Assembly: GCF_004010195.1 (NCBI RefSeq)
Contig: NC_057749.1
Span: 10,018,728 to 10,082,727 of the forward strand
Origin: Chiloscyllium plagiosum
Taxonomy: Eukaryota
Length of the DNA: 64,000 nt
Direction of reading: 5' to 3'
Position numbers and translations under genes: made by a program. Shown here in pieces: positions 1,793-59,130 of this stretch; within the stretch, counting starts at the first letter, position 1, and the number at the start of each line of letters is the position of its first letter. A model generated the notes under the pieces. The model saw only the letters and a program-made list of their open reading frames with translations, ran no database searches and had not been told where the DNA came from.

Positions 1793-3319
1793 AGGTGTGG
1801 CTGAAAAGGACAACATATTTTGCTCATCCCAATTGTCCTCGATAAGGTGGCATTGAGCTGATGTCTTGAACTGCTTGCATTTCATCTGGTATGGGTACAC
1901 TCTCAGTATCGCAGAGGTGCATACTCCTTACTCTGGTACTTCTCAATCTCTTAAGAGCCTCAATCCTACTCATACCCTGGTCTATCTACTCTGGGTGTGC
2001 ACCATCCCATTTCAGAAGCTTTTGTATTCACTCTGTGATATCCTGAACCTTAGCACTCACAAAAAGAAACATTCCATTTGATCCAAACTCGTAGCAATTT
2101 TAATTTTATCTGGAGCTGTCCCACAAAGCAAGGAAGTCACTTTTCATAGCATGCAGCCTACAGTCAGTATTGCAGTGTGGAGAGGCTGTTGCTCCACACA
2201 GAATGAGAGAGACCAGGAGTCTCTCTCATTCTGAACATTGGTGCATTGGAAAGATTTGACTGCATTCTAAATGCAAATTCCAGGAGAGGGTTTCAAAAGG
2301 AGAGAACCCACAGCCTTCCCAGTGCAATACTTGTTAAGACTTTCAGAGTTGAAAAGGAAAACGAGAACAAAAAATACTCAACGATCACTTGGGCTGAGCT
2401 GTGAGAGAAAGAGCTAAAACATTTCAGCTCAACAACACTTCACATGTTCTGATGAATGGTAAATGACCTGAAACTTGAACTTCTGTTTGTTCCTCTCCAG
2501 ATGCTGCCTGATGTGCTGTGTACAATGATTTATTTCAGATTTCCAGCATCTGCAATACTTTGCTTTTGTCCTTGAATTGAAAGGATCAAGCGCAGTAGAC
2601 CATTTGGTTATTTGTTCAGTCTTTTGCGACTTTAGATGGTTTTGTACAATGATCAATGAATGATTTTCTTAAGTTGCAAAAAAAATGGCACGCAGGCATT
2701 GCTGGCAAAGTTAGCCATGTCCATTCCTAATTGCCCTTCTGAAAGTTGTTGTGAACCACTTTCTTGACACCCGAGTGGTTTGCTTTGCCATTTCAGTTAA
2801 GAGTCAACCAGAGTGCTGTAAGTCTGGGGCAGATGATGTAAGAACAGTAAATTTTCTTCCTTAAGATAAGGCCATTTGAGTCAACTGGAGTTTCTGATGG
2901 TTTCTTGTAATACTTTTCAATTTCCAATTTGACTTCTAACTGAGTTTAAGTTCTTGGAGGCCATGCACTGGTGCCTCTCAATGAAAATGTTACTACAGTT
3001 CTCAGGGCTTAAAGGGTTCAAGCATATGGGACAAAAGCAGGAACAAAATAATAACCTGGATGACCATATTGAAGCTTGGGCTGAATGGTCGTTTGATCCA
3101 AATTCATAGCAATTTTTATTTTATCAGTAGCAGTCCCGCAAATCAAGGGGAAGTCACTTTTCACAGACTGTAGTCTGTGGTCAGTATTGCAGCATGGAAA
3201 AGCTGTCACTCTGAAGTTACTACATGGTTCTAATCGACCAGGAGTCTCTCCTACTTTTGATACTCTCCGCCTCTTTCTAATCTCTATCAAACTCCCCCTG
3301 CTCCTCCAAGTGAAGCAGC

Positions 3320-5099: not shown

Positions 5100-5650
5100 A
5101 TAATATAGAACAGGATAGCACAGTACAGGCCCTTCGGCCCTCAATGTTGTGCCGACCTTTTACCCTACTCTAAGATCAGACTAACCTACATACCCTTCAT
5201 TGTACTATCTTCCATGTGCCTATCCAGGAGTCCCTTAAGTGCCCGTAATCTATTCCATTCTCTGAGTCAAGAGCCTACCTCTGACGTCTCCCCGAAACCT
5301 TTCTCCAATTACCCTAAAATTATGCTCCCTCATGATAGACATTTCCGTCCTGGGAAAAAAAATCTGGCTATCCACTCTATCTGTACCTCTCAACATCTTG
5401 TAGACCTCTATCAAGTCACCTCTCATCCTTCTTCGCTCCAATGAGAAAAGCCCTAGCTCCCTCAACCTTTCATCATAAGACATGCCCTCCAGTCCAGGCA
5501 GCATCCTGGTAAATCTCCTCTGCACCCTCTCTAAAGCTTCCACATCCTTCCTATAACGAAGTAACCAGAATTGAACGCAATATTCCAAGTGTGGCCTAAT
5601 CAGTGCTCTGTAGGGCTGCAGCATAACCTCATGGCTCATAAACTCAAATA
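5100..5650 (-). mobile_element. CR1/HER1 LINE 3' fragment
   Basis: YRALIRPHLEYCVQFW...LERVQRRFTRMLPG...LERRRMRGDLIEVYK. Confidence 0.9.
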
Positions 5651-6904
5651 TTATTAACTCAGTTATTATTGTATAATAAAATAAAAGACTACACATGCTG
5701 GAAATCTAAAATAGAAACAGAAAGTGCTGGAGAAACTCTGCAGGACTGAAGATCTGATGAAGGGTTACTAGGCACTCATCTTTTTTTTTTAACTCATTCA
5801 CAGGCTATGGACATCACTGGCTAGACCAGCAGTTATTGCCCATCCCTAATTGCCCAGAGGGTAGTTAAGTGTAAACCACATTGCTGTGGGTCTGGAGTCA
5901 CATATAGGCCAGACCAGTTAAGATTGTCATGGAGGTGCTGGTGTTGGTTTGGAATGGACAAAGCCAGAAGTCACATGACTCCAGGTTATAATCCAACAGG
6001 TTTATTTGAAACCACAAACTTTCATAGCACCGTTCCTTCGTCAGGTGTGAAGGTAAGGTTGGCAGATTTCCTTCCCAACGAGACATTAGTGAAGCAGATG
6101 TGTCTGTGGCGAGAGAAACAGAGTTCACACTTTGAGTCCAGTGCCCCTTCATCAGAACTTAAACTCCTGCTGAGTTTCTACAACATCTTCTACTTTAGTG
6201 ACTGATTAATATTTTACAATCAAATAATTTTACATTTATATAACAAAGGAGTTTGACACAGATTGGGCTAGGTGCCAAGGCTTCAGGGAGGGTGCAGTCG
6301 AGGTTTGACAGAATCGATGCTAGAACGAGGGATTAGATGGAGCTGGGGCAGGTTCCTGAGGAAACTTTGAGGAGATTCGAGACAGATGTTCAAAATCATG
6401 AGGGCGGGCCCAATGAGAGGCTTCCCATTATAGGAATATAAAGGTAGGTCATTCAGGCTGCTCGTTCCACCATTAACAGATGGGTTGTGAACAAGAGGAT
6501 TCAAACTTAAGGTGATTGGCAAAAGAATGTGAGGGAAATCTGTTGTGTTTTAGTGCAGTGAATGGTTATGGTATATTACATTCTGGAATATGATCCCTGA
6601 AAATGTGGTGCAAAAGCAATTGTGACTTACAAAAAGGAATTGGGAAATGCACAGTTGTAAGGAAACAGTTGTATAGACAAGTATAATGGTTCTTGCAGAG
6701 AACGAGTATGGATGTGAATAGTTAAAATGCCCCTTCCAAGTTCTAACTAATCTGTGATTTTATAAGTCAGTCAGCAATTTGGCATTGGTCTTGGTCAGTT
6801 AGCTCAGCTGGCTGGATGACAGGTTTACAATACAGAATGGTGCCCACAGCATGGGCTCACTTCCTGTCACTGGCTGAGGTTACCATGAAGGCTCAACCTG
6901 AGAG

Positions 6905-13088: not shown

Positions 13089-13360
13089 TGTGGAGGAGCC
13101 GCTGTTGGATGAGGGTGGACAAAGTTAAAAATCACACAACATCAGATTATAGTCCAATAGGTTTATTCGGAAGCACTAGCTTTCAGAGCACTGCTCCTTC
13201 ACCAGGTGGTTGTGGAGCGGACCATAAGACACAGAATTTATAGCAAAATATTGTGTCTTATGGTTCTGCTCCACAGCTACCTGCTGAAGAAGCAGCGCTC
13301 TGAAAGCTTGTGCTTCCAAATAAACCTGTTGGAGTTTAACCTGATGTTGTGTGATTTTTA
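13089..13360. mobile_element. Palindromic Penelope-like short insert, family 2 (older copy)
   Basis: Near-complete ~235-bp inverted repeat centred ~13240; degenerate hammerhead cores; TSD ACAGAAG(G/C)ATTGG 13076-13088 / 13361-13373. Confidence 0.8.
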
Positions 13361-16142
13361 ACAGAAGCATTGGGTCAATATTCAATAGTTCAATTTAGCA
13401 ATTCCTGCAATGGCTGACCTCCCCAGAAAAAAAAACATGCCTCTTGAACGCAATTAATCAGAGCAAGTGAGTGGTGCATTGGTGAGGATACTGAGCTAAT
13501 AATGCACAAGGCCAGGCTAATCCCACCCTAACAGTGGGTAGAGTTTAAATGCAATTAATAAAATCTGGAATAGAAAATTATACTTAATAATGATGACTGT
13601 GCAGGGGAGAGGAAAAAAATCTATTTGTTTGATAGTGTTTTGAGGGAAGCAAATCTACTGGCTTAGATGTGGCTACATGTGACTCCAGACCCACAGCAAT
13701 GTGGTTAACTTTTAACTGCCCTTCAAAATGGCTTAGTAAGCCATTCAGTTCATCTGTAGATAGGTTAGGATAGGCAACCAACTCTGGTTTTGCCATAAAT
13801 GCCTACATCCTACATGAGATAATGAAAAGATATTCAAAAAAAATAAAAGTTTCAAACATTTGTGTTTTTTGTAATTGTTTTGTTTTTCTCTCTCTCTCTT
13901 TCTTTCTCTGAATCCAGTCTTTCCTTCCTCCATTTGTTTTTCTCAACCTAATTTGACTCTGTCACTCAAGAGGTCTGGCAGCATCTGTGGAGAGAAATCA
14001 GAGTTAACTGTTCCTTTTCTAGAACATCACTCGACCCAAAAGGTTAACTCTGATTTCTCTCCACAGATGCTGCTGAACTTTTCCAGCAATTTCTGTTTTT
14101 GACGTAATCTTTGGAATATTTCTGATCTACAGCATCTGTAATTCTTTCAGTTTTTATTGACTCTGTCACTGTTCTACTTTTTCCAGAATTTCTCTGTTTG
14201 TGTTATTTCCCATTTGTCATGGAGATAGACTATTGTTTGTATCATGCAGTAAGGACCAAGATGCCCTGTTGTTTTGATGTGTTTTTGTTGATTTGCATTT
14301 CCTGCAATTTGTAATGCATAAGATTTTTAAACTGACTGTATTAGAAAGCAATCTAACTGGCTGTGTCACGTGCGAGATTGGAGAATAAGGAAAAAGAGTA
14401 TACCATTAAGCCTTTCAGATCTCTTAGAGTCATAGATATGTACAGCATAGAACAGACCCTTCAGTCCAACTCATCCATGCTGACCAGATATTCAACATTG
14501 ATCTAGTCCTATTTGCCAGCACTTGGCCCATTTCCCTTCCTAATCATGTACTCATCCAGACGCTTTTGGATGTTGTAACTGTACCAGCCTCCACCACTTC
14601 CTCTGGCAGCTCACTCCATGCACGCACCACCCTCTGTGTGAAAATGTTACCTCTCCCTATACTCAATCCCTCCAACCCAGCAACTTCCTTATAAAACTTT
14701 TCTGAACCCCTTCAATCTTCTATCACGCTCTTGGAGATGATGGCTAATCTGTATCTGAACACCATCCATCCACCTTGATGTCACATCCTTCTGTATCATT
14801 GTGTAACAAAAATCTACAGATCTCAGAATTAAATCTGAACGCCAACTGTTTTTCTGTGGTTGCAGAGTTCCTAACTCTACCAACCTTTGAAAGGGCATTT
14901 CTGAACTTCCCTCTTGTGTGGTCTGGCTCTGACTTTGAGGTTATATCCCTTTGTCTTAGACTCTTTAACTGGACAAAGCTTGTTCTCTCTATCCACCCTA
15001 TCAATTCCTTTCAAGATCCTTAAAAAAAGACTCAACTGAATCAATCTTCACTTTCTTCTTTCCAAGTAATTTATATAATCTTGCTTGATAGAATATTCCT
15101 TGAATCTTTGATGCATTCTGAATAATCTACACAGCATTCCTTCTGAGGCCAAACAAATCCTTTCTAAGGTGTGGTGTGCAGAACTTTACACAAGACACCT
15201 GATATGGTTTGGGAAGGGCTTCAATAGCTAGAGAAATATCTCCTTTTTATTATTGAGCTCTTTTGTCTTGAAGGGTATGTTTCCACTGGCTTTTTTTCAT
15301 TATTCACAGAAGATTACTTTGATTCTGTGCACTCTGTATGTGAACCCCGAAGAACCATTGCTATTTCCAGCTTTCAACAATTAAAAATACTCAGTTTTAT
15401 CCTTTTCAGAATAAAAATAGATGACCTCACACTTACTCCCTTACAAATAAAGGGGCTACAAAAGCAGGTCAGAAGCTGCGAATCTCACACTGACTAACTC
15501 ATCTTCCGTCTCCCCATCCACATGACACAAGTCAGGAGTGTGATGGAATACTCATCAATTGCCTGGATGGGCACAGGTCCAACAAGACTCAAGCAGCTTG
15601 ACACCCATCCAGGACAAAGCACTTTATCCACAAACCTTCACTTGCTCCACCATTGCTGCTCAGTAGCAGCGGTGTGTACCATTTGCAAGATGCCTTGCAG
15701 AAGTTCACCAAGGCTGCTTAGGCAGCATCTTTCAAACCAATGACGACTTCCGGACAAGGGCAGCACATTTCACCTCCAAGTTCCCCTTCAAGCCACTCAC
15801 CATCCTGACTTGGAAATATATCACCGTTCCTTCAGTGGGTCAAAAGCCTGAAATTCCCTCTCTAAGGGCATTGTGGGTCTGCCCACAGCACATGCCTACA
15901 GTGATTCAAGAAAGCTGTTCATCACCACCTTCTCAAGGGCAACTAGGGATGGCAATAAATGTTGGTCCAGCCAGTGATCCTCTCACATCTCATGAATTAA
16001 TTTTTAAAAGATCCATCTGGAAGAAGTTGTGCCCACTGCTTTAATCTGCTTTTTGCAATGTTATGCCCTTAGCTAAAAGCAAAGTAAGACATTGAGAAGG
16101 TGGTGGTTAGTCACCCTTGTTGCACTGCTGCAGTCTATTTGG

Positions 16143-33969: not shown

Positions 33970-35681
33970 TTTTTATTTCAAGGATATACTTTATTCATAA
34001 AATATTTTGATGATCTGTACAATTGGTGGTGCCATACATACGTAAACATTCCATTTTTTTACATACCGAGATCGGAATTAACCATTCGTATATACAGGTC
34101 TGTACGTTTACCATCCCAATATTTAGCTGAGGCATCAGCAGAGCCCAAATAACTAGGTGAGCCCCCTATTCTTCTTTGACAGGCAGATGTTACATGGTGG
34201 TCTTTCCCCACCGCGCCTTGGTGGCAGCTGCCCCAAGCTTCAGCGCTTCCCTCAACACGTAGTCCTGGACTTGGAATGTGCCAGTCCGCAACACAGTTGG
34301 GGTCAGCTCCTTCAGCTGGAAGATCAACAGGTTTCGGACAGACCAAAGAGCGTCTTTCACCGAATTGATGATCCTCCAGGCACAATTGATGTTCGTCTCG
34401 GTGTGCGTCCCGGGGAACAGACCGTAGAGCACGGAGTCCCGCGTCACGGCGCTGCTCGGGATGAACCTCGACAAACACCACTGCATTCCTCTCCAGACTT
34501 CCTTTGCGTAGGCACATTCCAGAAGGAGGTGTGTGACAGTCTCGTCCCCTCCACAGCCACTTCGGGAGCAGGGCGCGGTGTGGCAGAGAGTCCGGGCATG
34601 CATAAAGGATTTCACAGGCAGAGCCCTTCTCTCCACCAGCCAAGCCATGTCTTGGTGCTTGTTGGAAAGTTCTGGCGATGAGGCATTCTGCCAACTGACT
34701 TTGACAGTCTGCCCAGGGAACTGCTCAAGAGGATCCGCCCTCTCCTTTTCCCAGAGAGTCTCAAGGACACTACGTGCTGACCACTTCCTGATGGACTTGT
34801 GGTCAAAGGTGTTTTTCTTCATAAATTTCTCCATGAAGGACAGGTGATACGGAACGGTCCAACTACTTGGAGTGTCCCGCAGCAGCGAGGCCAGGCCCAT
34901 CCTTCGCAACACCGTGGACAGGTAGAACCTCAGTACGTAGTGACACTTGGTGTTTGCGTACCAGGGATCCACGCACAGCTTGATGCAGCCACACACAATG
35001 GTGACCATCAGGGTGAGGGTGGCACTGGGTGTGTTTTTTCCCCCGTTGCCCAGATCTTTACACATCAAGTCCCTTCGGACCCAGTCCATCTTTGATCTCC
35101 ATATAAAATGGAAGATGGCCCGGGTGACTGCGATGGCATAGATTCTGGGAATAGGCCAGACCTGTGCCACATATAACAACACTGACAATGCCTCACACCT
35201 AATGACCAGGTTTTACTCACGATGGAGTGTGACTGTAGCTTCCATCTGCCCAGTTTCTGCCTCACTTTCCCGATACGCTCCTCCCAAGACATGGCGCACG
35301 CCCCAGTCCCTCTGAACCAAATACCCAGCACCTTCAGGTGGTCAATGCTGACGGTGAAGGGGATGGGGGATTGGTCGGCCCAGTTCCCGAAGAGCATGGC
35401 CTCGCTCTTGCCTCGGTTTACCTTAGCCCCCGAGGCCCGTTCGAACTGGTCACATTTGCACATGAGTCTGTGCACGGACAGCGGATCTGAGCAGAAAACA
35501 TCGAAGTCATCCATGTACAGGGAGGCCTTAACCTGCAGACCCCCGCTGCCAGGAATAGTCACCCTTATCAGGCTCGCATCCTTCCTGATGGACTCGGCAA
35601 ATGGCTCTATGCAGCACACAAACAAGGCAGGAGAGAGAGGGCAGTCCTGCCTGACTCCAGATCTGACTAAGAAGCTATCTG
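33970..35681 (-). mobile_element. 5'-truncated L1/Tx1-clade non-LTR retrotransposon (RT C-terminal part + zf-RVT), frameshifted
   Basis: GVRQDCPLSP, LYMDD, CSRSGCGGDETVTHLLLEC motifs; AATAAA and A-tail at 3' end; TSD ATCAATCTTTGCCTTT at 33954-33969 and 35682-35697. Confidence 0.92.
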
Positions 35682-36789
35682 ATCAATCTTTGCCTTTAGG
35701 TCAGTCATCAAGGGTAGCGTCAACTGCTTCACTAGGCAGGGAATTCCACAGATTCACAACCCTTTGGGTGAAGAAGTTCCTTCTCAATTCAGTCCTAAAT
35801 CTGCTCTTCCTTATTTTGAGGCTATGCCCCCAAGTTCTACCTGCCAAAAGAAACAACCTCTCTGCTTCTATCTTATCTATTCCCATCATAATTTTGCATG
35901 TTTCTATAGGATCCCCCTCATTCCTCTAAATTCCAATGAGTACAGTCACAGTTTACTCAGTCTCTGCTCATAAGCCAACCCTCCCAACTTCGGAATCAAC
36001 CGAGTGAACCTCCTCCTGCAGTGCGCCGGTACATCTCTCTCTCTCTGTCTCTTTCTCTCTTTCTCTCTCTCTCTCTTCCCCCCCACCCTCCCCACCATCT
36101 CTCTCAGTCTCCACGTATTCTGTCTGAAACTTTGAATCTTCTTTTCCAGCATTTTTTTGATTTTGTTATGTATTTACTGTGTTGCCTATTGCAGCACCAG
36201 GAAGCCTCGCAGTGGGAGACTGTGCCAGTTGTGAGGTTTCACCTATTCTGGTAAGTTCCCCAACCTTACCTCTGACCCTGTTGGCAACAGATGGAGAAGA
36301 AAAAGAGAGGGTACGTTTGCGTCCACCTGTTGTGTAATCATTCTTGCCATGCAGAAAAGATTTGGCAATGAAAAGCACATCAACCTGGATAGATGTTTTC
36401 AACTTGTTTGACATTTTACCTTCGAGAGCTCTCGTTGTTTGTTTGTGTAAAATTAATGAATTTGCAGTACGTTTTTACACACTGTAAAGAGAGGGCACAA
36501 ACTAAAATGTGGTGAATTGCTTGTTCTGCTTCCTTATTAAGATAAAACTGAAATCTTATGTTTATGTTTAATATTCTCCAGCAGAAAAAGAGACTAGATT
36601 TTATTTATTCTAATTTTTTACTGTATCGACATGCACATCACAGGCAAGGCCATTTATTGCCCATCCCTACATGCCCTGGAGAAGGTGGGGACTGAACCGT
36701 TGCAGTCTTTGGGTTGTATGTGCTCCCATAGGTCTGTCTGCTGGAGAAATCCAGGATTTTGACAATGAGGGAATGGCAACACAGTTCCA

Positions 36790-57293: not shown

Positions 57294-58221
57294 GTCAGTT
57301 CACAAAATACACATTCACAAAACTAAAAGAGAAAGAAGGAAATTGCTAGATATTGCAATTTCAGGATGTCCCAAAACACATTTGCAACCGACTTAAATGC
57401 TTCTGAAGCGTAATCACTGTGATAAGGCTGCGGTTGCCAGTTGTACACAACGAGTTCCCTTAAAGATCAATGAGGTAACAAGATCATCTGTTTAATGATG
57501 TTGATTGAGAGATAAACATTAACCAGACACTGGAGAATGTTCTTCTCCTGCTGATTAGTAATGCCATTGAACTCTTTACCTGTGAGGGGCAAGACAGTGG
57601 AGCAGTCACTCAGTGTGTCAGCCTGGATTATGTGCGCAAGGACCTGAACCCACAATCATCTGACTCTATGATGAGACTGCTACAAAGTGAACCATGAAAC
57701 TTCCACTTGCAAGAGCAAACATACCTGCCTTTAGGACATCTTTAGGAGTCCAATTTTCTCACTGAACTTCAAGGGCAGAAATTAATCATATACTATTTTA
57801 ATAATCTATATTTGAATGTGCACCATTTATTTAGTTTTCCCAAATTTAATTAAATATTGTTGCTAGTTCTTAAGTCCGAAGGATTAGAATTCAATTTAAT
57901 TAATTCCAAAAGTAAAATCCAGATTAATATAAAAGGCTCATGACCTGCTTGATTCCCACTTAGTTGTAGTTTTTTGAGCATCTTGCCTGACAAGAGAAAT
58001 AAATTGACAAAATGATCTTACTTTTTGCATTGGGTAAAGTTTAAACTGAGGCCACGTGTGAGATCATAAAACCTTGGACCATCACAACACACTAACGGTA
58101 TCCTTTGATCCATTATTTCTTGTGCCTGCTGTTAAAAGAGCGGTGCAATTATCCCGATCCCACCATTTCGATCTTGCCCCGTGGCCCTTCAATTTTATCA
58201 CAAATGTTTCCTCTGCTGTAG

Positions 58222-58381
58222 GTGACAGAGTATCTATTGAGCCAGGTGTCCCAAGAGAAAACTGTGAATTTTGCAAAATTGGACGCTACAATCTCTCTCC
58301 AACGATTTTCTTCAGTGCTACACCTCCTGATGATGGGACTCTTTGTCGATACTATGTCCACAATGCCAACTACTGTTTCAA
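58222..58381 (+). CDS. SORD: SORD exon 4 ([54 protein letters not shown], 160 nt)
   Basis: Acceptor ctctgctgtag|, donor CAA|gtgagt; GDRV.IEPG and ATPPDDG.LCR motifs; phase 1 to 2. Confidence 0.98.
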
Positions 58382-58502
58382 GTGAGTTCCTCATGCTTGG
58401 TCAGAGGCTACTAGATTTGACATCTGCATCCCTGAGTTTGGGAATGGGAACGTTGGCCATGGACTGCTGTATGCACGGGTATTAGATAACATTTGTGAGA
58501 TC

Positions 58503-58735
58503 GTGATTTGGGGATGCCAGTGTTGGACTTGGGTGTACAAAGTTAAAAATCACACAACACCAGGTTATAGTCCAACAGGTTTAACTGGAAGCACTAGCTT
58601 TTGGAGTGATGCTCCTTCATCAGGTGGTAGTGCTGATTGTACACCGCAACCACCTGATGAAGGAGCGTCGCTCCGAAAGCTAGTGCTTCCAATTAAACCT
58701 GTTGGACTATAACCTGGTGTTGTGTGATTTTTAAA
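58503..58735. mobile_element. Palindromic Penelope-like short insert, family 2
   Basis: ~85-bp inverted arms (58543-58734), ~40-nt asymmetric tail, hammerhead core in each arm, TSD ATYTGTGAGATC 58491-58502 / 58736-58747. Confidence 0.8.
58651..58685 (+). ncRNA. Minimal hammerhead motif, family 2, intact core
   Basis: CAC-CUGAUGA-A-GGAGC-GUC-GCUCC-GAAAGCUA-GUG; stem I CAC/GUG, palindromic AGCU, CUA triplet; sense in SORD intron 4. Confidence 0.6.
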
Positions 58736-58849
58736 ATCTGTGAGATCAAGATGGTTAATTAGGCTGTTATGAATAGAGTTGTGTTCTTGAGATTATTATA
58801 CAATTTCATCCATACTACTACATGTTTTTTAAACTGTAAGTTAACACAC

Positions 58850-59130
58850 TTGCATGGTGGCCTTGTGGTTAGCATTACTGCCTTGCAGTGCCAGGAAGCC
58901 AGGTCTGAGTCCTGCATTGGCTGACTGTCTGTGTGGAATTTGCATATCCTCCCTGTGTCTGTGCAGGTTTTCTCCAGGTGCTCCAGTTTTCTCCCAGAGT
59001 CCAAAGATCTGTAGGTTAAGTAGATTGGCCATGGGGAATGCAGGGTTACAGGGATGGGGTTAGTCTGGGTAGGATGCTATTCGGAAGGTTGGTGTGGATT
59101 TGATGGGCTGAATGGCCTGCTTCCACATTG
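58850..59130 (+). mobile_element. HE1-type V-SINE (SORD intron 4)
   Basis: Same consensus motifs. Confidence 0.85.

What the first reader, a model, noticed from the sequence alone, without database searches (positions are those of the whole stretch)
58503..58735. TSD-flanked palindromic mini-retroposon with a hammerhead core on each strand
Seen: a 233-bp insert between ~12-bp direct repeats with ~85-bp inverted arms and a ~40-nt one-sided tail. The right arm has an intact CAC-CUGAUGA-A-GGAGC-GUC-GCUCC-GAAAGCUA-GUG core; the left arm has the same core on the minus strand, with GAAA decayed to AAAA. Known: Penelope-like elements carry minimal type-I hammerheads with palindromic stem III that cleave as dimers, and they make inverted pseudo-LTR insertions with short tails. 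Inference: these are non-autonomous PLE/retrozyme-like units mobilised whole, whose ambisense ribozyme and rod-like fold resemble viroid-like RNAs. This copy sits ~120 nt downstream of SORD exon 4, so the intact core is transcribed in SORD pre-mRNA.
Basis: partly seen in the sequence, partly recalled or inferred. Interest (0 to 1): 0.75.

Follow-up and report, generated by a model that had tools for sequence, protein, structure and literature searches.

The report
Dead-on-arrival Penelope hammerhead mini-palindrome
A 233-base hairpin-shaped insert in a shark sorbitol dehydrogenase intron is a stunted double copy of the tail end of a Penelope-like jumping gene, carrying that group's usual small hammerhead ribozyme motif: it is real and very common in this genome, but of a known kind.

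Summary
The insert has 93-nt inverted arms (92% complementary), a one-sided 40-nt tail, an 11/12 target-site duplication, an intact minimal hammerhead (min-HHR) on the + strand, and a decayed copy on the - strand. It sits 121 nt downstream of a SORD exon.

It belongs to a huge family. The 32-nt core with at most 1 mismatch occurs 16,106 times in the 3.56-Gb genome. The motif has every published hallmark of Penelope-like-element (PLE) min-HHRs.

The arms are the last ~90 or ~130 nt of a 3.3-kb element. That element carries a PLE-type reverse transcriptase remnant; relatives have RT plus a C-terminal GIY-YIG domain.

The claim "mobilised whole, viroid-like" is not supported:
- Junctions differ from copy to copy.
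- The two arms often carry different family variants.
- 17 of 18 inverted pairs have exactly one tail.
- Lengths grade continuously up to 3.3 kb.

Each mini is therefore a fresh double, 5'-truncated insertion primed from both target strands. At this locus the RNA would fold into a -167 kcal/mol hairpin that buries the ribozyme.

Two additions of mine:
- Arms start about 8 nt before the CUGAUGA box, about 30 nt after a conserved TATAAA. I infer a promoter there.
- Poly(A) tails seen in RNA reads point to a polyadenylation cassette in the arm.

The scan has already reported this class in 8 other windows of this genome. It is a new member of a known kind.

The parts
58491..58502 (.). Left target-site duplication, ATTTGTGAGATC
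   Evidence: Matches 58736-58747 at 11/12. 19 of 20 independent family copies have their own TSD of 11-18 bp.
58503..58542 (-). 40-nt 'tail': a 3' extension of the left (inverted) arm only
   Evidence: Present in all 30 best genome matches, query positions 2-232. Exactly one tail in 17 of 18 inverted pairs of the unbiased sample. It corresponds to the published PLE tail, the sequence between two RT start sites (PMC11167929 passages).
58543..58632 (-). Left arm: the 3'-terminal ~90 nt of the element, inverted. It reaches position -9 relative to the CUGAUGA box. Its hammerhead is decayed (58592-58623) and its poly(A) signal is mutated.
   Evidence: three CpG G>A changes (one is G12 of GAAA) and A>G in ATTAAA.
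58633..58646 (.). 14-nt junction filler between the two arms
   Evidence: Read. Not part of either arm by comparison with the long form. Fillers differ between copies.
58647..58735 (+). Right arm: the 3'-terminal ~89 nt of the element, sense to SORD, no tail
58651..58685 (+). Intact minimal type-I hammerhead motif: CAC / CUGAUGA / A / GGAGC-GUC-GCUCC / GAAA / GCUA / GUG. Predicted cut after A58682.
   Evidence: Exact core. Features match the min-HHR description in PMC4209133. Cleavage is inferred, not shown.
58692..58697 (+). ATTAAA poly(A) signal of the right arm, followed by a GU/U-rich stretch (58706-58732)
   Evidence: On the long-form copy L062, 258 + 345 RNA reads of run X19 carry non-templated poly(A) 12-15 nt after the homologous ATTAAA. 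Use at this locus was not tested.
58736..58747 (.). Right target-site duplication, ATCTGTGAGATC
58222..58381 (+). SORD exon upstream of the insert (acceptor AG 58220-58221, donor GT 58382-58383)
   Evidence: Translation of 58224-58382 matches sorbitol dehydrogenase residues 88-140, E 3.8e-26. Splice sites read.

Best explanation
The 233-bp insert is one retrotransposition product of a Penelope-like element (PLE), not a gene and not a self-propagating unit.

Shown:
- It consists of two inverted, severely 5'-truncated copies of the last ~90 nt of a 3.3-kb PLE-derived element.
- The two copies are joined head to head by a 14-nt filler.
- One arm runs 40 nt further at its outer end (the 'tail').
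- The whole is flanked by a 12-bp target-site duplication.
- Each arm carries the family's minimal hammerhead motif because that motif lies ~30-65 nt from the 5' end of the piece that gets copied.

Inferred mechanism:
1. A PLE RT/GIY-YIG protein supplied in trans makes a staggered break and primes cDNA on both target strands, as reported for the Anolis element PAc in vitro.
2. The two cDNAs start at the two alternative internal RT start sites. This explains why there is exactly one tail.
3. The two cDNAs often use two different RNA molecules.
4. Both run to the 5' end of a short RNA that begins about 8 nt before the CUGAUGA box, and are then joined with a few extra bases.
5. I propose that this RNA end is a Pol II start site: a TATAAA box sits 30-32 nt upstream and an initiator-like CCA(+1)C lies at the arm start. 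On this reading the terminal module is promoter, start site, hammerhead, poly(A) cassette.

Consequences:
- Minis such as this one lack the promoter and are dead on arrival.
- In SORD pre-mRNA the two arms would pair into a 93-bp hairpin that hides the ribozyme. Self-cleavage here is unlikely. Any effect would be that of an intronic dsRNA hairpin or of a sense-oriented poly(A) signal.
For: Family and structure:
- All 40 scored genome matches, out of 3539 first-look candidates, cover query positions ~2-232.
- The alignment of 30 loci shows tail + arm + variable centre + arm, each with its own flanks.
- A TSD is present in 19 of 20 independent copies.

Unbiased sample (first 30 exact-core hits along contig 1 = 26 sites):
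- 12 tight inverted minis, 6 longer inverted pairs, 8 single arms.
- 17 of 18 pairs have exactly one tail and none has two.

Long form:
- 10 of 30 arms continue upstream into a common sequence.
- A 951-nt upstream query is repeated at 98-99% identity with staggered 5' ends and adjacent inverted pieces.
- The longest unit is L062:2225-5516 (3292 nt). Three more copies at ~100% identity share the same 5' end.

PLE identity:
- The L062 ORF pieces include LPKIHK...RPTVS and YIDD.
- tblastn places protein P0015 residues 78-694 on L062 3247-5067.
- P0015 has RVT_1 at 291-479 and GIY-YIG at 708-751, 25 bits against a cut-off of 22.6.
- 72 homologues were found; the best are two Chiloscyllium punctatum proteins at 76% and 71% identity.

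Hammerhead:
- A min-HHR descriptor gives 76 hits in 209 kb against 1 in the reversed control.
- Other families keep the layout with different helix II sequences: GGGC/GCCC, GGGU/ACCC, GAGUC/GAUUC, GUUACCA/UGGUGAC. All have the bulged base.

Independent formation of each mini:
- 1705 tight palindromes genome-wide. The 50 listed show about 38 distinct centres.
- 10 of 25 informative pairs have discordant arms (hand count).

RNA 5' end and promoter:
- 30 of 43 arms end between -13 and +16, and 0 of 43 end at the predicted cleavage site +29.
- 21 of 50 centres are 9-13 nt long, as expected if both arms stop near -8.
- 9766 of 35,432 arms carry GCTATAAATTCTGTG at fixed spacing. Several subfamilies have very different spacers but keep CTCCACWAYCAC.
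- A second family repeats the pattern: 10,873 tight palindromes whose arms start at (C)ATTC, positions -4/-5, and a TTTATCTCT box at fixed spacing in 12,909 arms.

Poly(A).

Hairpin: -167.4 kcal/mol for the whole insert, against -8.8 for the hammerhead-competent fold of the 54-nt segment.

Literature.
Against: - I found no intact autonomous partner. The RT frames in L062 and in the 76%-identical relative L063 carry in-frame stops.
- The endonuclease part is not detectable in the young family.
- A Pfam GIY-YIG search of the genome gave 1 weak hit among 150 scored of 14,403 candidates.
- Pfam RVT_1 hits on the element itself are below the curated cut-off.
- Rfam hammerhead models do not match.
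- Self-cleavage is untested. Helix I is only 3 bp in this copy.
- The start-site reading has no direct RNA 5'-end support. One search flagged no place where many molecules begin. BLAST-estimated arm ends are spread over about 30 nt.
- The TATA block was forced by my search pattern, so its own conservation was not measured independently.
- 15 of 25 informative palindromes have concordant arms, so a single template is also common.
- The poly(A) site lies 22 nt upstream of the arm's 3' end. Polyadenylated RNAs therefore cannot be the templates.
- Run X19 carries a coded species label that I cannot equate with the window's organism.
Confidence: 0.85

Rival explanations
1. One reading: the palindrome is a non-autonomous, retrozyme-like or viroid-like unit that is transcribed and retrotransposed as a whole, with a working ribozyme on each strand.
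For: - The family is very abundant, and full-length matches include the tail.
- Some centres recur. ATTGACAAT occurs 4 times among the 50 listed junctions, and three copies share the same plain junction.
- At insertion both strands did carry an intact motif.
Against: - About 38 distinct centres among 50 listed junctions, and 10 of 25 informative pairs with discordant arm variants (hand count).
- The recurrent centres are simple abutments of two arms that each end at -7 or -8, which is what independent events would also give.
- Lengths grade continuously up to 3.3 kb.
- Minis lack the TATA block that lies at -38.
- A transcript holds one sense hammerhead locked in a -167 kcal/mol hairpin.
- No tandem copies were seen in the loci.
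Confidence: 0.05
2. Same PLE origin, but the sharp inner boundary of the arms comes from the reverse transcriptase stalling or switching template just after copying the structured hammerhead region of long RNAs. On this reading there is no transcription start site there.
For: - Arm ends are spread from +16 to -13.
- Fillers often repeat nearby hammerhead sequence, a sign of template switching.
- Helix II and AGCU are palindromic and could let two cDNAs anneal.
- No RNA 5'-end pile was seen.
Against: - The boundary lies beyond the structured part, at -7 to -10, in most tight junctions: 21 of 50 centres are 9-13 nt.
- A TATAAA at -38 and an initiator-like CCAC at the boundary keep their spacing across subfamilies whose spacers differ.
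- The same box-30-nt-boundary geometry recurs in a second family with a different sequence.
Confidence: 0.3
3. Snap-back origin: a single cDNA folds back on itself and copies itself, giving the palindrome without priming from the second target strand.
For: 15 of 25 informative palindromes have identical arm variants (hand count). Hairpin-prone sequence lies at the junction.
Against: - Snap-back would copy the same outer end onto both arms, giving two tails or none. Yet 17 of 18 inverted pairs have exactly one.
- 10 of 25 pairs have arms with different family variants. The window copy is one of them.
- In vitro, PAc extends both strands (PMC11167929 passages).
Confidence: 0.1
4. A miniature inverted-repeat (foldback) DNA transposon whose terminal repeats happen to contain a hammerhead-like string.
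For: 93-nt terminal inverted repeats and flanking direct repeats.
Against: - TSD length varies from 11 to 18 bp.
- The tail is asymmetric.
- Centres are variable.
- The arms are the 3' end of an RT-bearing 3.3-kb element with staggered 5' truncations.
Confidence: 0.02

Closest known systems
Minimal hammerhead ribozymes (min-HHR) in the pseudo-LTRs of metazoan Penelope-like elements (Cervera & De la Pena 2014, PMC4209133; main text parts 1-2 read)
   Same: - Type-I layout and CUGAUGA and GAAA boxes.
- One unpaired base between A9 and G10.1, and a G10.1-C11.1 pair.
- No stem III hairpin; instead a palindromic 15.2-16.2 (AGCU), which implies dimers.
- Short helix I.
- Thousands of dispersed copies, mostly outside full elements.
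- That paper already notes pairs of motifs 100-700 bp apart on opposite strands.
   Different: - Helix II is 5 bp, against 7-8 bp in the Schistosoma families described there.
- Helix I is only 3 bp in this copy.
- The pair is ~30 nt apart here.
- Activity is untested here; it was low even for dimers in that paper.
- I found no paper on shark PLE hammerheads. The search returned one paper, which mentions sharks only for the shape of the ribozyme.
Canonical EN+ PLE insertion units: 5' truncation, adjacent inverted 5'-truncated copy, one-sided 30-40-bp tail (Craig et al. 2021, PMC8557442 passages; Frangieh et al. 2024, PMC11167929 passages)
   Same: - Inverted 5'-truncated copies, a 40-nt tail at one end only, and a variable TSD.
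- Hammerhead close to the RT start sites.
- In PAc both target strands are cut and extended, and the tail is the stretch between two RT start sites.
- PAc HHR mutants still insert in vitro, and no RNA-seq reads ended at the HHR site. This matches my finding that 0 of 43 arm ends fall at the cleavage site.
   Different: - Here both copies are cut down to ~90 nt, so nothing but the terminal module remains.
- The young long form has a stop-ridden ORF and no detectable endonuclease part, so the family must be moved in trans.
- I did not see a partial-tandem pseudo-LTR arrangement in the loci examined.
Animal non-LTR retrozymes (Cervera & De la Pena 2020, PMC7229834, search listing only; Li et al. 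2026 bioRxiv 10.64898/2026.07.22.740005, abstract and passages)
   Same: Short, non-autonomous, hammerhead-bearing, PLE-related sequences found in non-mammalian vertebrates, including one cartilaginous fish.
   Different: Retrozymes are head-to-tail tandem repeats thought to give circular RNAs. This insert is a head-to-head inverted pair with one sense ribozyme per transcript. I saw no tandem copies.
D. virilis Penelope regulatory region (Schostak et al. 2008, PMC2377424 passages)
   Same: The terminal repeat contains the element's own Pol II promoter upstream of the hammerhead.
   Different: Penelope's promoter is described as TATA-less and internal, with a 75-bp intron 46 bp after the start site. 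Here I infer a TATA box with a start 8 nt before the ribozyme box and no intron.

Membership tests
PLE minimal hammerhead (min-HHR) | Conserved core: C3-U4-G5-A6-N7-G8-A9, G12-A13-A14, A15.1/U16.1, H17 | tested here: met
   Right arm 58654-58685 is exact, with H17 = A58682. The left arm fails: G12>A plus two more changes.
PLE minimal hammerhead (min-HHR) | One unpaired nucleotide between A9 and G10.1, and a G10.1-C11.1 pair closing helix II | tested here: met
   A58661 is followed by GGAGC-GUC-GCUCC. All 76 descriptor hits in 209 kb have the bulge. The feature is listed in PMC4209133.
PLE minimal hammerhead (min-HHR) | No stem III hairpin; palindromic 15.2-16.2, so that two copies can pair | tested here: met
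   A-GC-U at 58678-58681. The second family has A-CG-U.
PLE minimal hammerhead (min-HHR) | Families within a genome differ by compensatory changes in the helices | tested here: met
   Helix II variants GGAGC/GCUCC, GGGC/GCCC, GGGU/ACCC, GAGUC/GAUUC, GUUACCA/UGGUGAC, GGAAC/GUUCC. Control: 1 hit against 76.
PLE minimal hammerhead (min-HHR) | Self-cleavage, as dimers | not testable with these tools
   No assay was possible. RNA reads showed no pile of ends at the site, but the poly(A) single-cell library is unsuited to show one.
Rfam hammerhead families | Match to a curated hammerhead covariance model | tested here: not met
   No hit at gathering score or at E<=10. This is expected for a motif without stem III and loop 1, and so does not weigh against min-HHR membership.
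Penelope-like element (EN+) insertion | RT of the PLE type joined to a C-terminal GIY-YIG endonuclease | tested here: inconclusive
   The long form carries an RT remnant aligning to P0015 residues 78-694. P0015 has RVT_1 + GIY-YIG. The element's own frame has stops, and its endonuclease part is not detectable. Ancestry is met; autonomy is not.
Penelope-like element (EN+) insertion | 5'-truncated copies, often with an adjacent inverted 5'-truncated copy | tested here: met
   18 of 26 unbiased sites are inverted pairs. Staggered 5' ends with adjacent inverted pieces.
Penelope-like element (EN+) insertion | [quoted passage not shown] | tested here: met
   40 nt at 58503-58542. Exactly one tail in 17 of 18 pairs.
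Penelope-like element (EN+) insertion | Partial tandem copies forming direct pseudo-LTRs | tested here: inconclusive
   Not seen in L062. Its only direct repeat, 135 nt, belongs partly to another repeat. No systematic search was made.
Non-LTR retrozyme | Head-to-tail tandem repeats, each with a hammerhead, yielding circular RNA | tested here: not met
   This copy, and all 18 pairs in the unbiased sample, are head-to-head. Circular RNA was not testable.
MITE / foldback DNA transposon | Terminal inverted repeats with a fixed-length TSD and no RNA-copy signatures | tested here: not met
   TSD of 11-18 bp, one-sided tail, and arms that are the 3' end of an RT-bearing element with 5' truncations.

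The most novel reading that the evidence does not exclude
The terminal ~130 nt of these shark PLEs may be a self-contained, LTR-like Pol II mini-unit:
- a TATA box,
- a start site 4-8 nt before the hammerhead box,
- the hammerhead within the first ~45 nt of the RNA,
- then ATTAAA plus a GU-rich poly(A) cassette,
- then two RT start sites.

On this reading the more than ten thousand mini-palindromes are run-off cDNAs of its short capped read-through transcripts, primed from both target strands. The ribozyme would then sit where cleavage removes the cap. That gives a concrete, testable role for PLE hammerheads: switching an RNA between capped message and uncapped template. As a side effect, thousands of intronic 90-bp hairpins could feed small-RNA or editing pathways against the family.
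Probability: 0.35. Interest if true: 0.55.

Novelty: new member of a known kind. Interest (0 to 1): 0.27.

Why it matters
As a catch it is ordinary. PLE hammerheads, inverted truncated PLE copies and the one-sided tail are all in print, and the scan has met this class repeatedly in this genome.

Its value is as natural evidence on how PLEs insert, which is still poorly understood:
- Tens of thousands of young copies record one tail per pair.
- Arms often derive from different templates.
- Junctions cluster just upstream of the ribozyme.
- No arm ends at the ribozyme cut site.

These observations fit two-strand priming on uncleaved RNA. They also point to a promoter and poly(A) layout that can be tested directly.

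For SORD, the insert adds a long intronic hairpin and a sense poly(A) signal. I have no evidence that either has any effect.

Tried and rejected
- Rfam at gathering score and at E<=10: no hammerhead, only weak miRNA-hairpin matches that reflect the palindrome.
- Pfam GIY-YIG search of the whole genome for an autonomous partner: 1 weak hit among 150 scored of 14,403 candidates, not useful.
- Window ORFs: the only RT (34.2-35.7 kb, RVT_1 + zf-RVT) is a LINE, not a PLE.
- Pfam on the element's own ORF pieces: only sub-threshold RVT_1 and no GIY-YIG, even at E<=10.
- N-termini of the homologous proteins do not show whether the ORF starts in the ribozyme box as in PAc.
- The look-up of sequencing runs: no RNA holder listed. 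Run X20 laid 0 reads, so it is no test. Runs X1 and X3 are contigs of unknown kind and say nothing on expression.
- ViennaRNA cofold of two 54-nt segments pairs the palindromic helix II between molecules rather than AGCU, so it does not model the proposed dimer.
- Arm/tail stem GUUGGACU/AGUCCAAC: folding z-score -1.4, not significant.
- Lookup of earlier findings by sequence and by six words gave nothing.
Only two further regions were fetched. The census of long forms therefore rests on hit tables, not on sequences.
- Supplementary figures of PMC4209133, which hold the family alignments, were not opened.
Full report
1. Observation

The sequence is as described.
- The repeat finder gives inverted arms 58543-58635 and 58642-58734: 93 nt, 92% complementary, 6 nt apart.
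- The flanks repeat ATTTGTGAGATC / ATCTGTGAGATC at 11 of 12 positions.
- A 40-nt stretch, 58503-58542, lies between the left repeat and the left arm, with no counterpart on the right.
- The string CTGATGA-A-GGAGC-GTC-GCTCC-GAAA-GCTA-GTG is exact at 58654-58685 on the + strand. It recurs with three mismatches at 58592-58623 on the - strand. No shuffle out of 100 produced a match.
- The three changes are all G>A at CpG sites, and one of them turns GAAA into AAAA.
- The exon at 58222-58381 encodes residues 88-140 of sorbitol dehydrogenase, E 3.8e-26 against 3qe3. The insert therefore starts 121 nt into the next intron, with the intact motif in the sense orientation. I did not verify the exon number.
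- Rfam's hammerhead models do not match, either at gathering score or at E<=10.

2. A very large, young family

The window's genome is 3.56 Gb.
- The whole 233 nt finds 3539 first-look candidates. All 40 that were scored cover positions ~2-232, tail included.
- The 32-nt core with at most one mismatch occurs 8158 + 7948 times, against 0 + 0 for the reversed control.
- CACCTGATGAAGGAGC occurs 17,859 + 17,573 times.
- Thirty aligned loci show the same plan each time: own flank, tail, arm, variable centre, arm, own flank.
- A TSD of 11-18 bp is present in 19 of 20 independent copies.
- Ten of those 30 loci (L019-L028) share their flanks. I counted them as one, because that mini rides inside a larger repeat.

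3. The arms are the 3' end of a Penelope-like element

The first 30 exact-core hits along contig 1 form a sample not chosen for resemblance to the window copy. They represent 26 sites:
- 12 tight inverted minis like this one,
- 6 inverted pairs with longer arms,
- 8 single arms.

Ten of the 30 arms run on upstream into one common sequence. A 951-nt piece of that sequence is repeated at 98-99% identity, with staggered 5' ends and frequent adjacent inverted pieces.

The longest unit is 3292 nt (L062:2225-5516). Three other copies at about 100% identity share the same 5' end.

It holds reverse-transcriptase pieces with LPKIHK...RPTVS and YIDD.
- 72 database proteins match a relative's RT. The best are two Chiloscyllium punctatum proteins at 76% and 71% identity.
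- One homologue, P0015, has RVT_1 plus a C-terminal GIY-YIG domain above the Pfam cut-off. This is the domain order of endonuclease-positive PLEs.
- P0015 residues 78-694 align to L062 3247-5067, but with in-frame stops.
- The endonuclease part is not found in this young family, though it is found in the 76% relative L063.

The family is therefore PLE-derived but not autonomous. I did not find its helper.

4. The hammerhead motif

Cervera and De la Pena (PMC4209133; main text parts 1-2 read) list what marks PLE minimal hammerheads:
- the catalytic boxes,
- an unpaired base between positions 9 and 10.1,
- the G10.1-C11.1 pair,
- no stem III, but a palindromic 15.2-16.2 so that two copies pair,
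- a short helix I,
- families full of compensatory changes.

The right arm has all of these.

A simple descriptor found 76 such motifs in the 209 kb I held, against 1 in reversed sequence. This DNA was partly chosen for holding the main family. About 20 of the hits belong to other families with the same plan but other helix II pairs: GGGC/GCCC, GGGU/ACCC, GAGUC/GAUUC, GUUACCA/UGGUGAC.

This is the covariation expected of a real RNA motif. Cleavage itself is untested. That paper reports no activity for single motifs and low activity for dimers.

5. Why it is not 'mobilised whole'

- Among the 1705 tight palindromes in the genome, the 50 listed have about 38 different centres. The recurrent ones are plain abutments of two arms (hand count).
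- The family is polymorphic at positions -6 (A/T) and -4 (T/C) before the box. Of 25 listed palindromes in which both arms reach these positions, 10 have arms of different type (hand count). The window copy also differs at -6. Two templates were therefore often used.
- 17 of 18 inverted pairs have exactly one tail and none has two. This also argues against a snap-back copy of a single cDNA.
- Arm lengths run without a break from about 80 nt to 3.3 kb.

This agrees with the published picture:
- PLE insertions are 5'-truncated, often with an adjacent inverted truncated copy and a 30-40-bp tail at one end (PMC8557442 passages).
- The Anolis element PAc cuts and extends both target strands and starts reverse transcription at two internal sites that bracket the tail (PMC11167929 passages).

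6. What sets the inner end of the arms (inference)

Of 43 arms in the unbiased sample:
- 30 end between -13 and +16 relative to the C of CUGAUGA,
- 13 are longer,
- none ends at the predicted ribozyme cut (+29) (BLAST ends are approximate).

The templates were therefore uncleaved. This matches the PAc report that hammerhead mutants still insert in vitro and that no reads end at the cut site.

In 21 of the 50 listed junctions the centre is 9-13 nt long, as expected if both arms stop 7-10 nt before the box.

In the long form a TATAAA lies 30-32 nt upstream of that point, and the point itself reads CCA-C-W.
- 9766 of 35,432 arms keep GCTATAAATTCTGTG at a fixed distance.
- Subfamilies with quite different spacers keep CTCCACWAYCAC.

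A second, even commoner hammerhead family repeats the geometry with other sequence:
- 10,873 tight palindromes whose arms begin at (C)ATTC, positions -4/-5,
- a TTTATCTCT box about 32 nt further up in 12,909 arms.

From recalled knowledge of TATA-to-start spacing and of the initiator consensus, I read this as a Pol II start site just before the ribozyme. Nothing here shows an RNA 5' end directly. In D. virilis the Penelope promoter is described as TATA-less, with an intron between the start and the ribozyme (PMC2377424 passages). If I am right, this is a different layout.

7. RNA reads

One raw-read RNA run (X19: poly(A) single-cell library, coded species label) gave 1854 reads on L062:5100-5600.
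- The reads are strongly biased to the pairing that indicates RNA of the ribozyme's sense: up to 897 against 154 per bin.
- 258 + 345 reads carry non-templated poly(A) right after positions 5491 and 5494. That is 12-15 nt past an ATTAAA and just before a GU/U-rich run.
- 162 + 52 reads continue into the tail sequence.
- No place with many starts or ends was flagged.

The arm therefore seems to hold a working poly(A) cassette. Templates for insertion must be read-through RNAs, because the arm's 3' end lies 22 nt beyond the poly(A) site. Reads from other subfamilies or internal priming could contribute. X20 gave no reads.

8. This locus

As RNA, the 233 nt fold into an almost perfect 93-bp hairpin of -167.4 kcal/mol. 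The hammerhead-competent fold of the 54-nt segment is worth -8.8 kcal/mol.

A SORD pre-mRNA holds one sense motif, paired to its own complement, with no second sense copy nearby. Self-cleavage here is unlikely.

The right arm's ATTAAA (58692-58697) is intact and in the sense orientation. The left arm's is mutated. I have no data on any effect on SORD.

9. Verdict

The 'whole-unit, viroid-like' mechanism is not supported.

The class is known. The scan has already filed it in eight other windows of this genome. I reached the same classification from my own tests.

What is modestly new is the evidence for two-template, two-strand formation and the inferred promoter-ribozyme-poly(A) layout.

Noticed in passing
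L062:5474-5516 (homologous to window 58692-58735): The arm ends in a classical poly(A) cassette: ATTAAA, a cleavage zone, then a GU/U-rich run. 603 of the 1854 laid RNA reads of run X19 carry poly(A) 12-15 nt after the hexamer.
   Followed up: partly
window 957, 4324(-), 23405, 53156(-), 53642(-), 62204, 63631(-); genome-wide: A second minimal-hammerhead family: CTGAWGA-A-GGGC-loop-GCCC-GAAA-CGTC. It forms 10,873 tight palindromes in the genome, and its arms start at (C)ATTC. A TTTATCTCT box lies about 32 nt upstream in 12,909 arms.
   Followed up: partly
window 13090-13362: An older palindromic copy of the same family. Its arms reach further upstream and include the TATAAA block, and its core is decayed (CTGCTGA).
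   Followed up: no
window 5930-6050: A divergent subfamily copy: tail plus a single arm on the minus strand, with CTGACGA and a decayed helix II. Its arm/tail complementarity shows one compensatory change (C-G to U-A) relative to the main family.
   Followed up: no
L019-L028 (ten contigs): Ten copies of one mini share identical 60-nt flanks on both sides. That mini has therefore been spread passively inside a larger repeat or duplication.
   Followed up: no
window 58633-58646: The 14-nt junction filler contains TTGTACACC, a 9-nt match to the tail sequence in sense orientation. This hints at a template switch to the tail region during joining.
   Followed up: no
L062:2225-3300 and 2870-3213(-): The 5' third of the young 3.3-kb unit is a patchwork. 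It holds a LINE-like RT fragment (RVT_1 121-193, E 5.7e-4) and, on the opposite strand, the C-terminal end of another PLE's endonuclease region (...LEEEHLIFRLGTLQ...).
   Followed up: no
window 34059-35682 (-): LINE-type reverse transcriptase remnant (RVT_1 E 1.6e-11, zf-RVT E 1e-8), unrelated to the finding.
   Followed up: no
L062:5150-5520: Contigs from runs under four coded organism labels hold half or more of the sampled 31-mers of the young element's 3' region. Near-identical copies therefore exist under several species labels.
   Followed up: no
window 58850-59000: A SINE-like repeat just downstream of the insert. I recognised it only by eye as a common fish/shark repeat and did not test it.
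   Followed up: no
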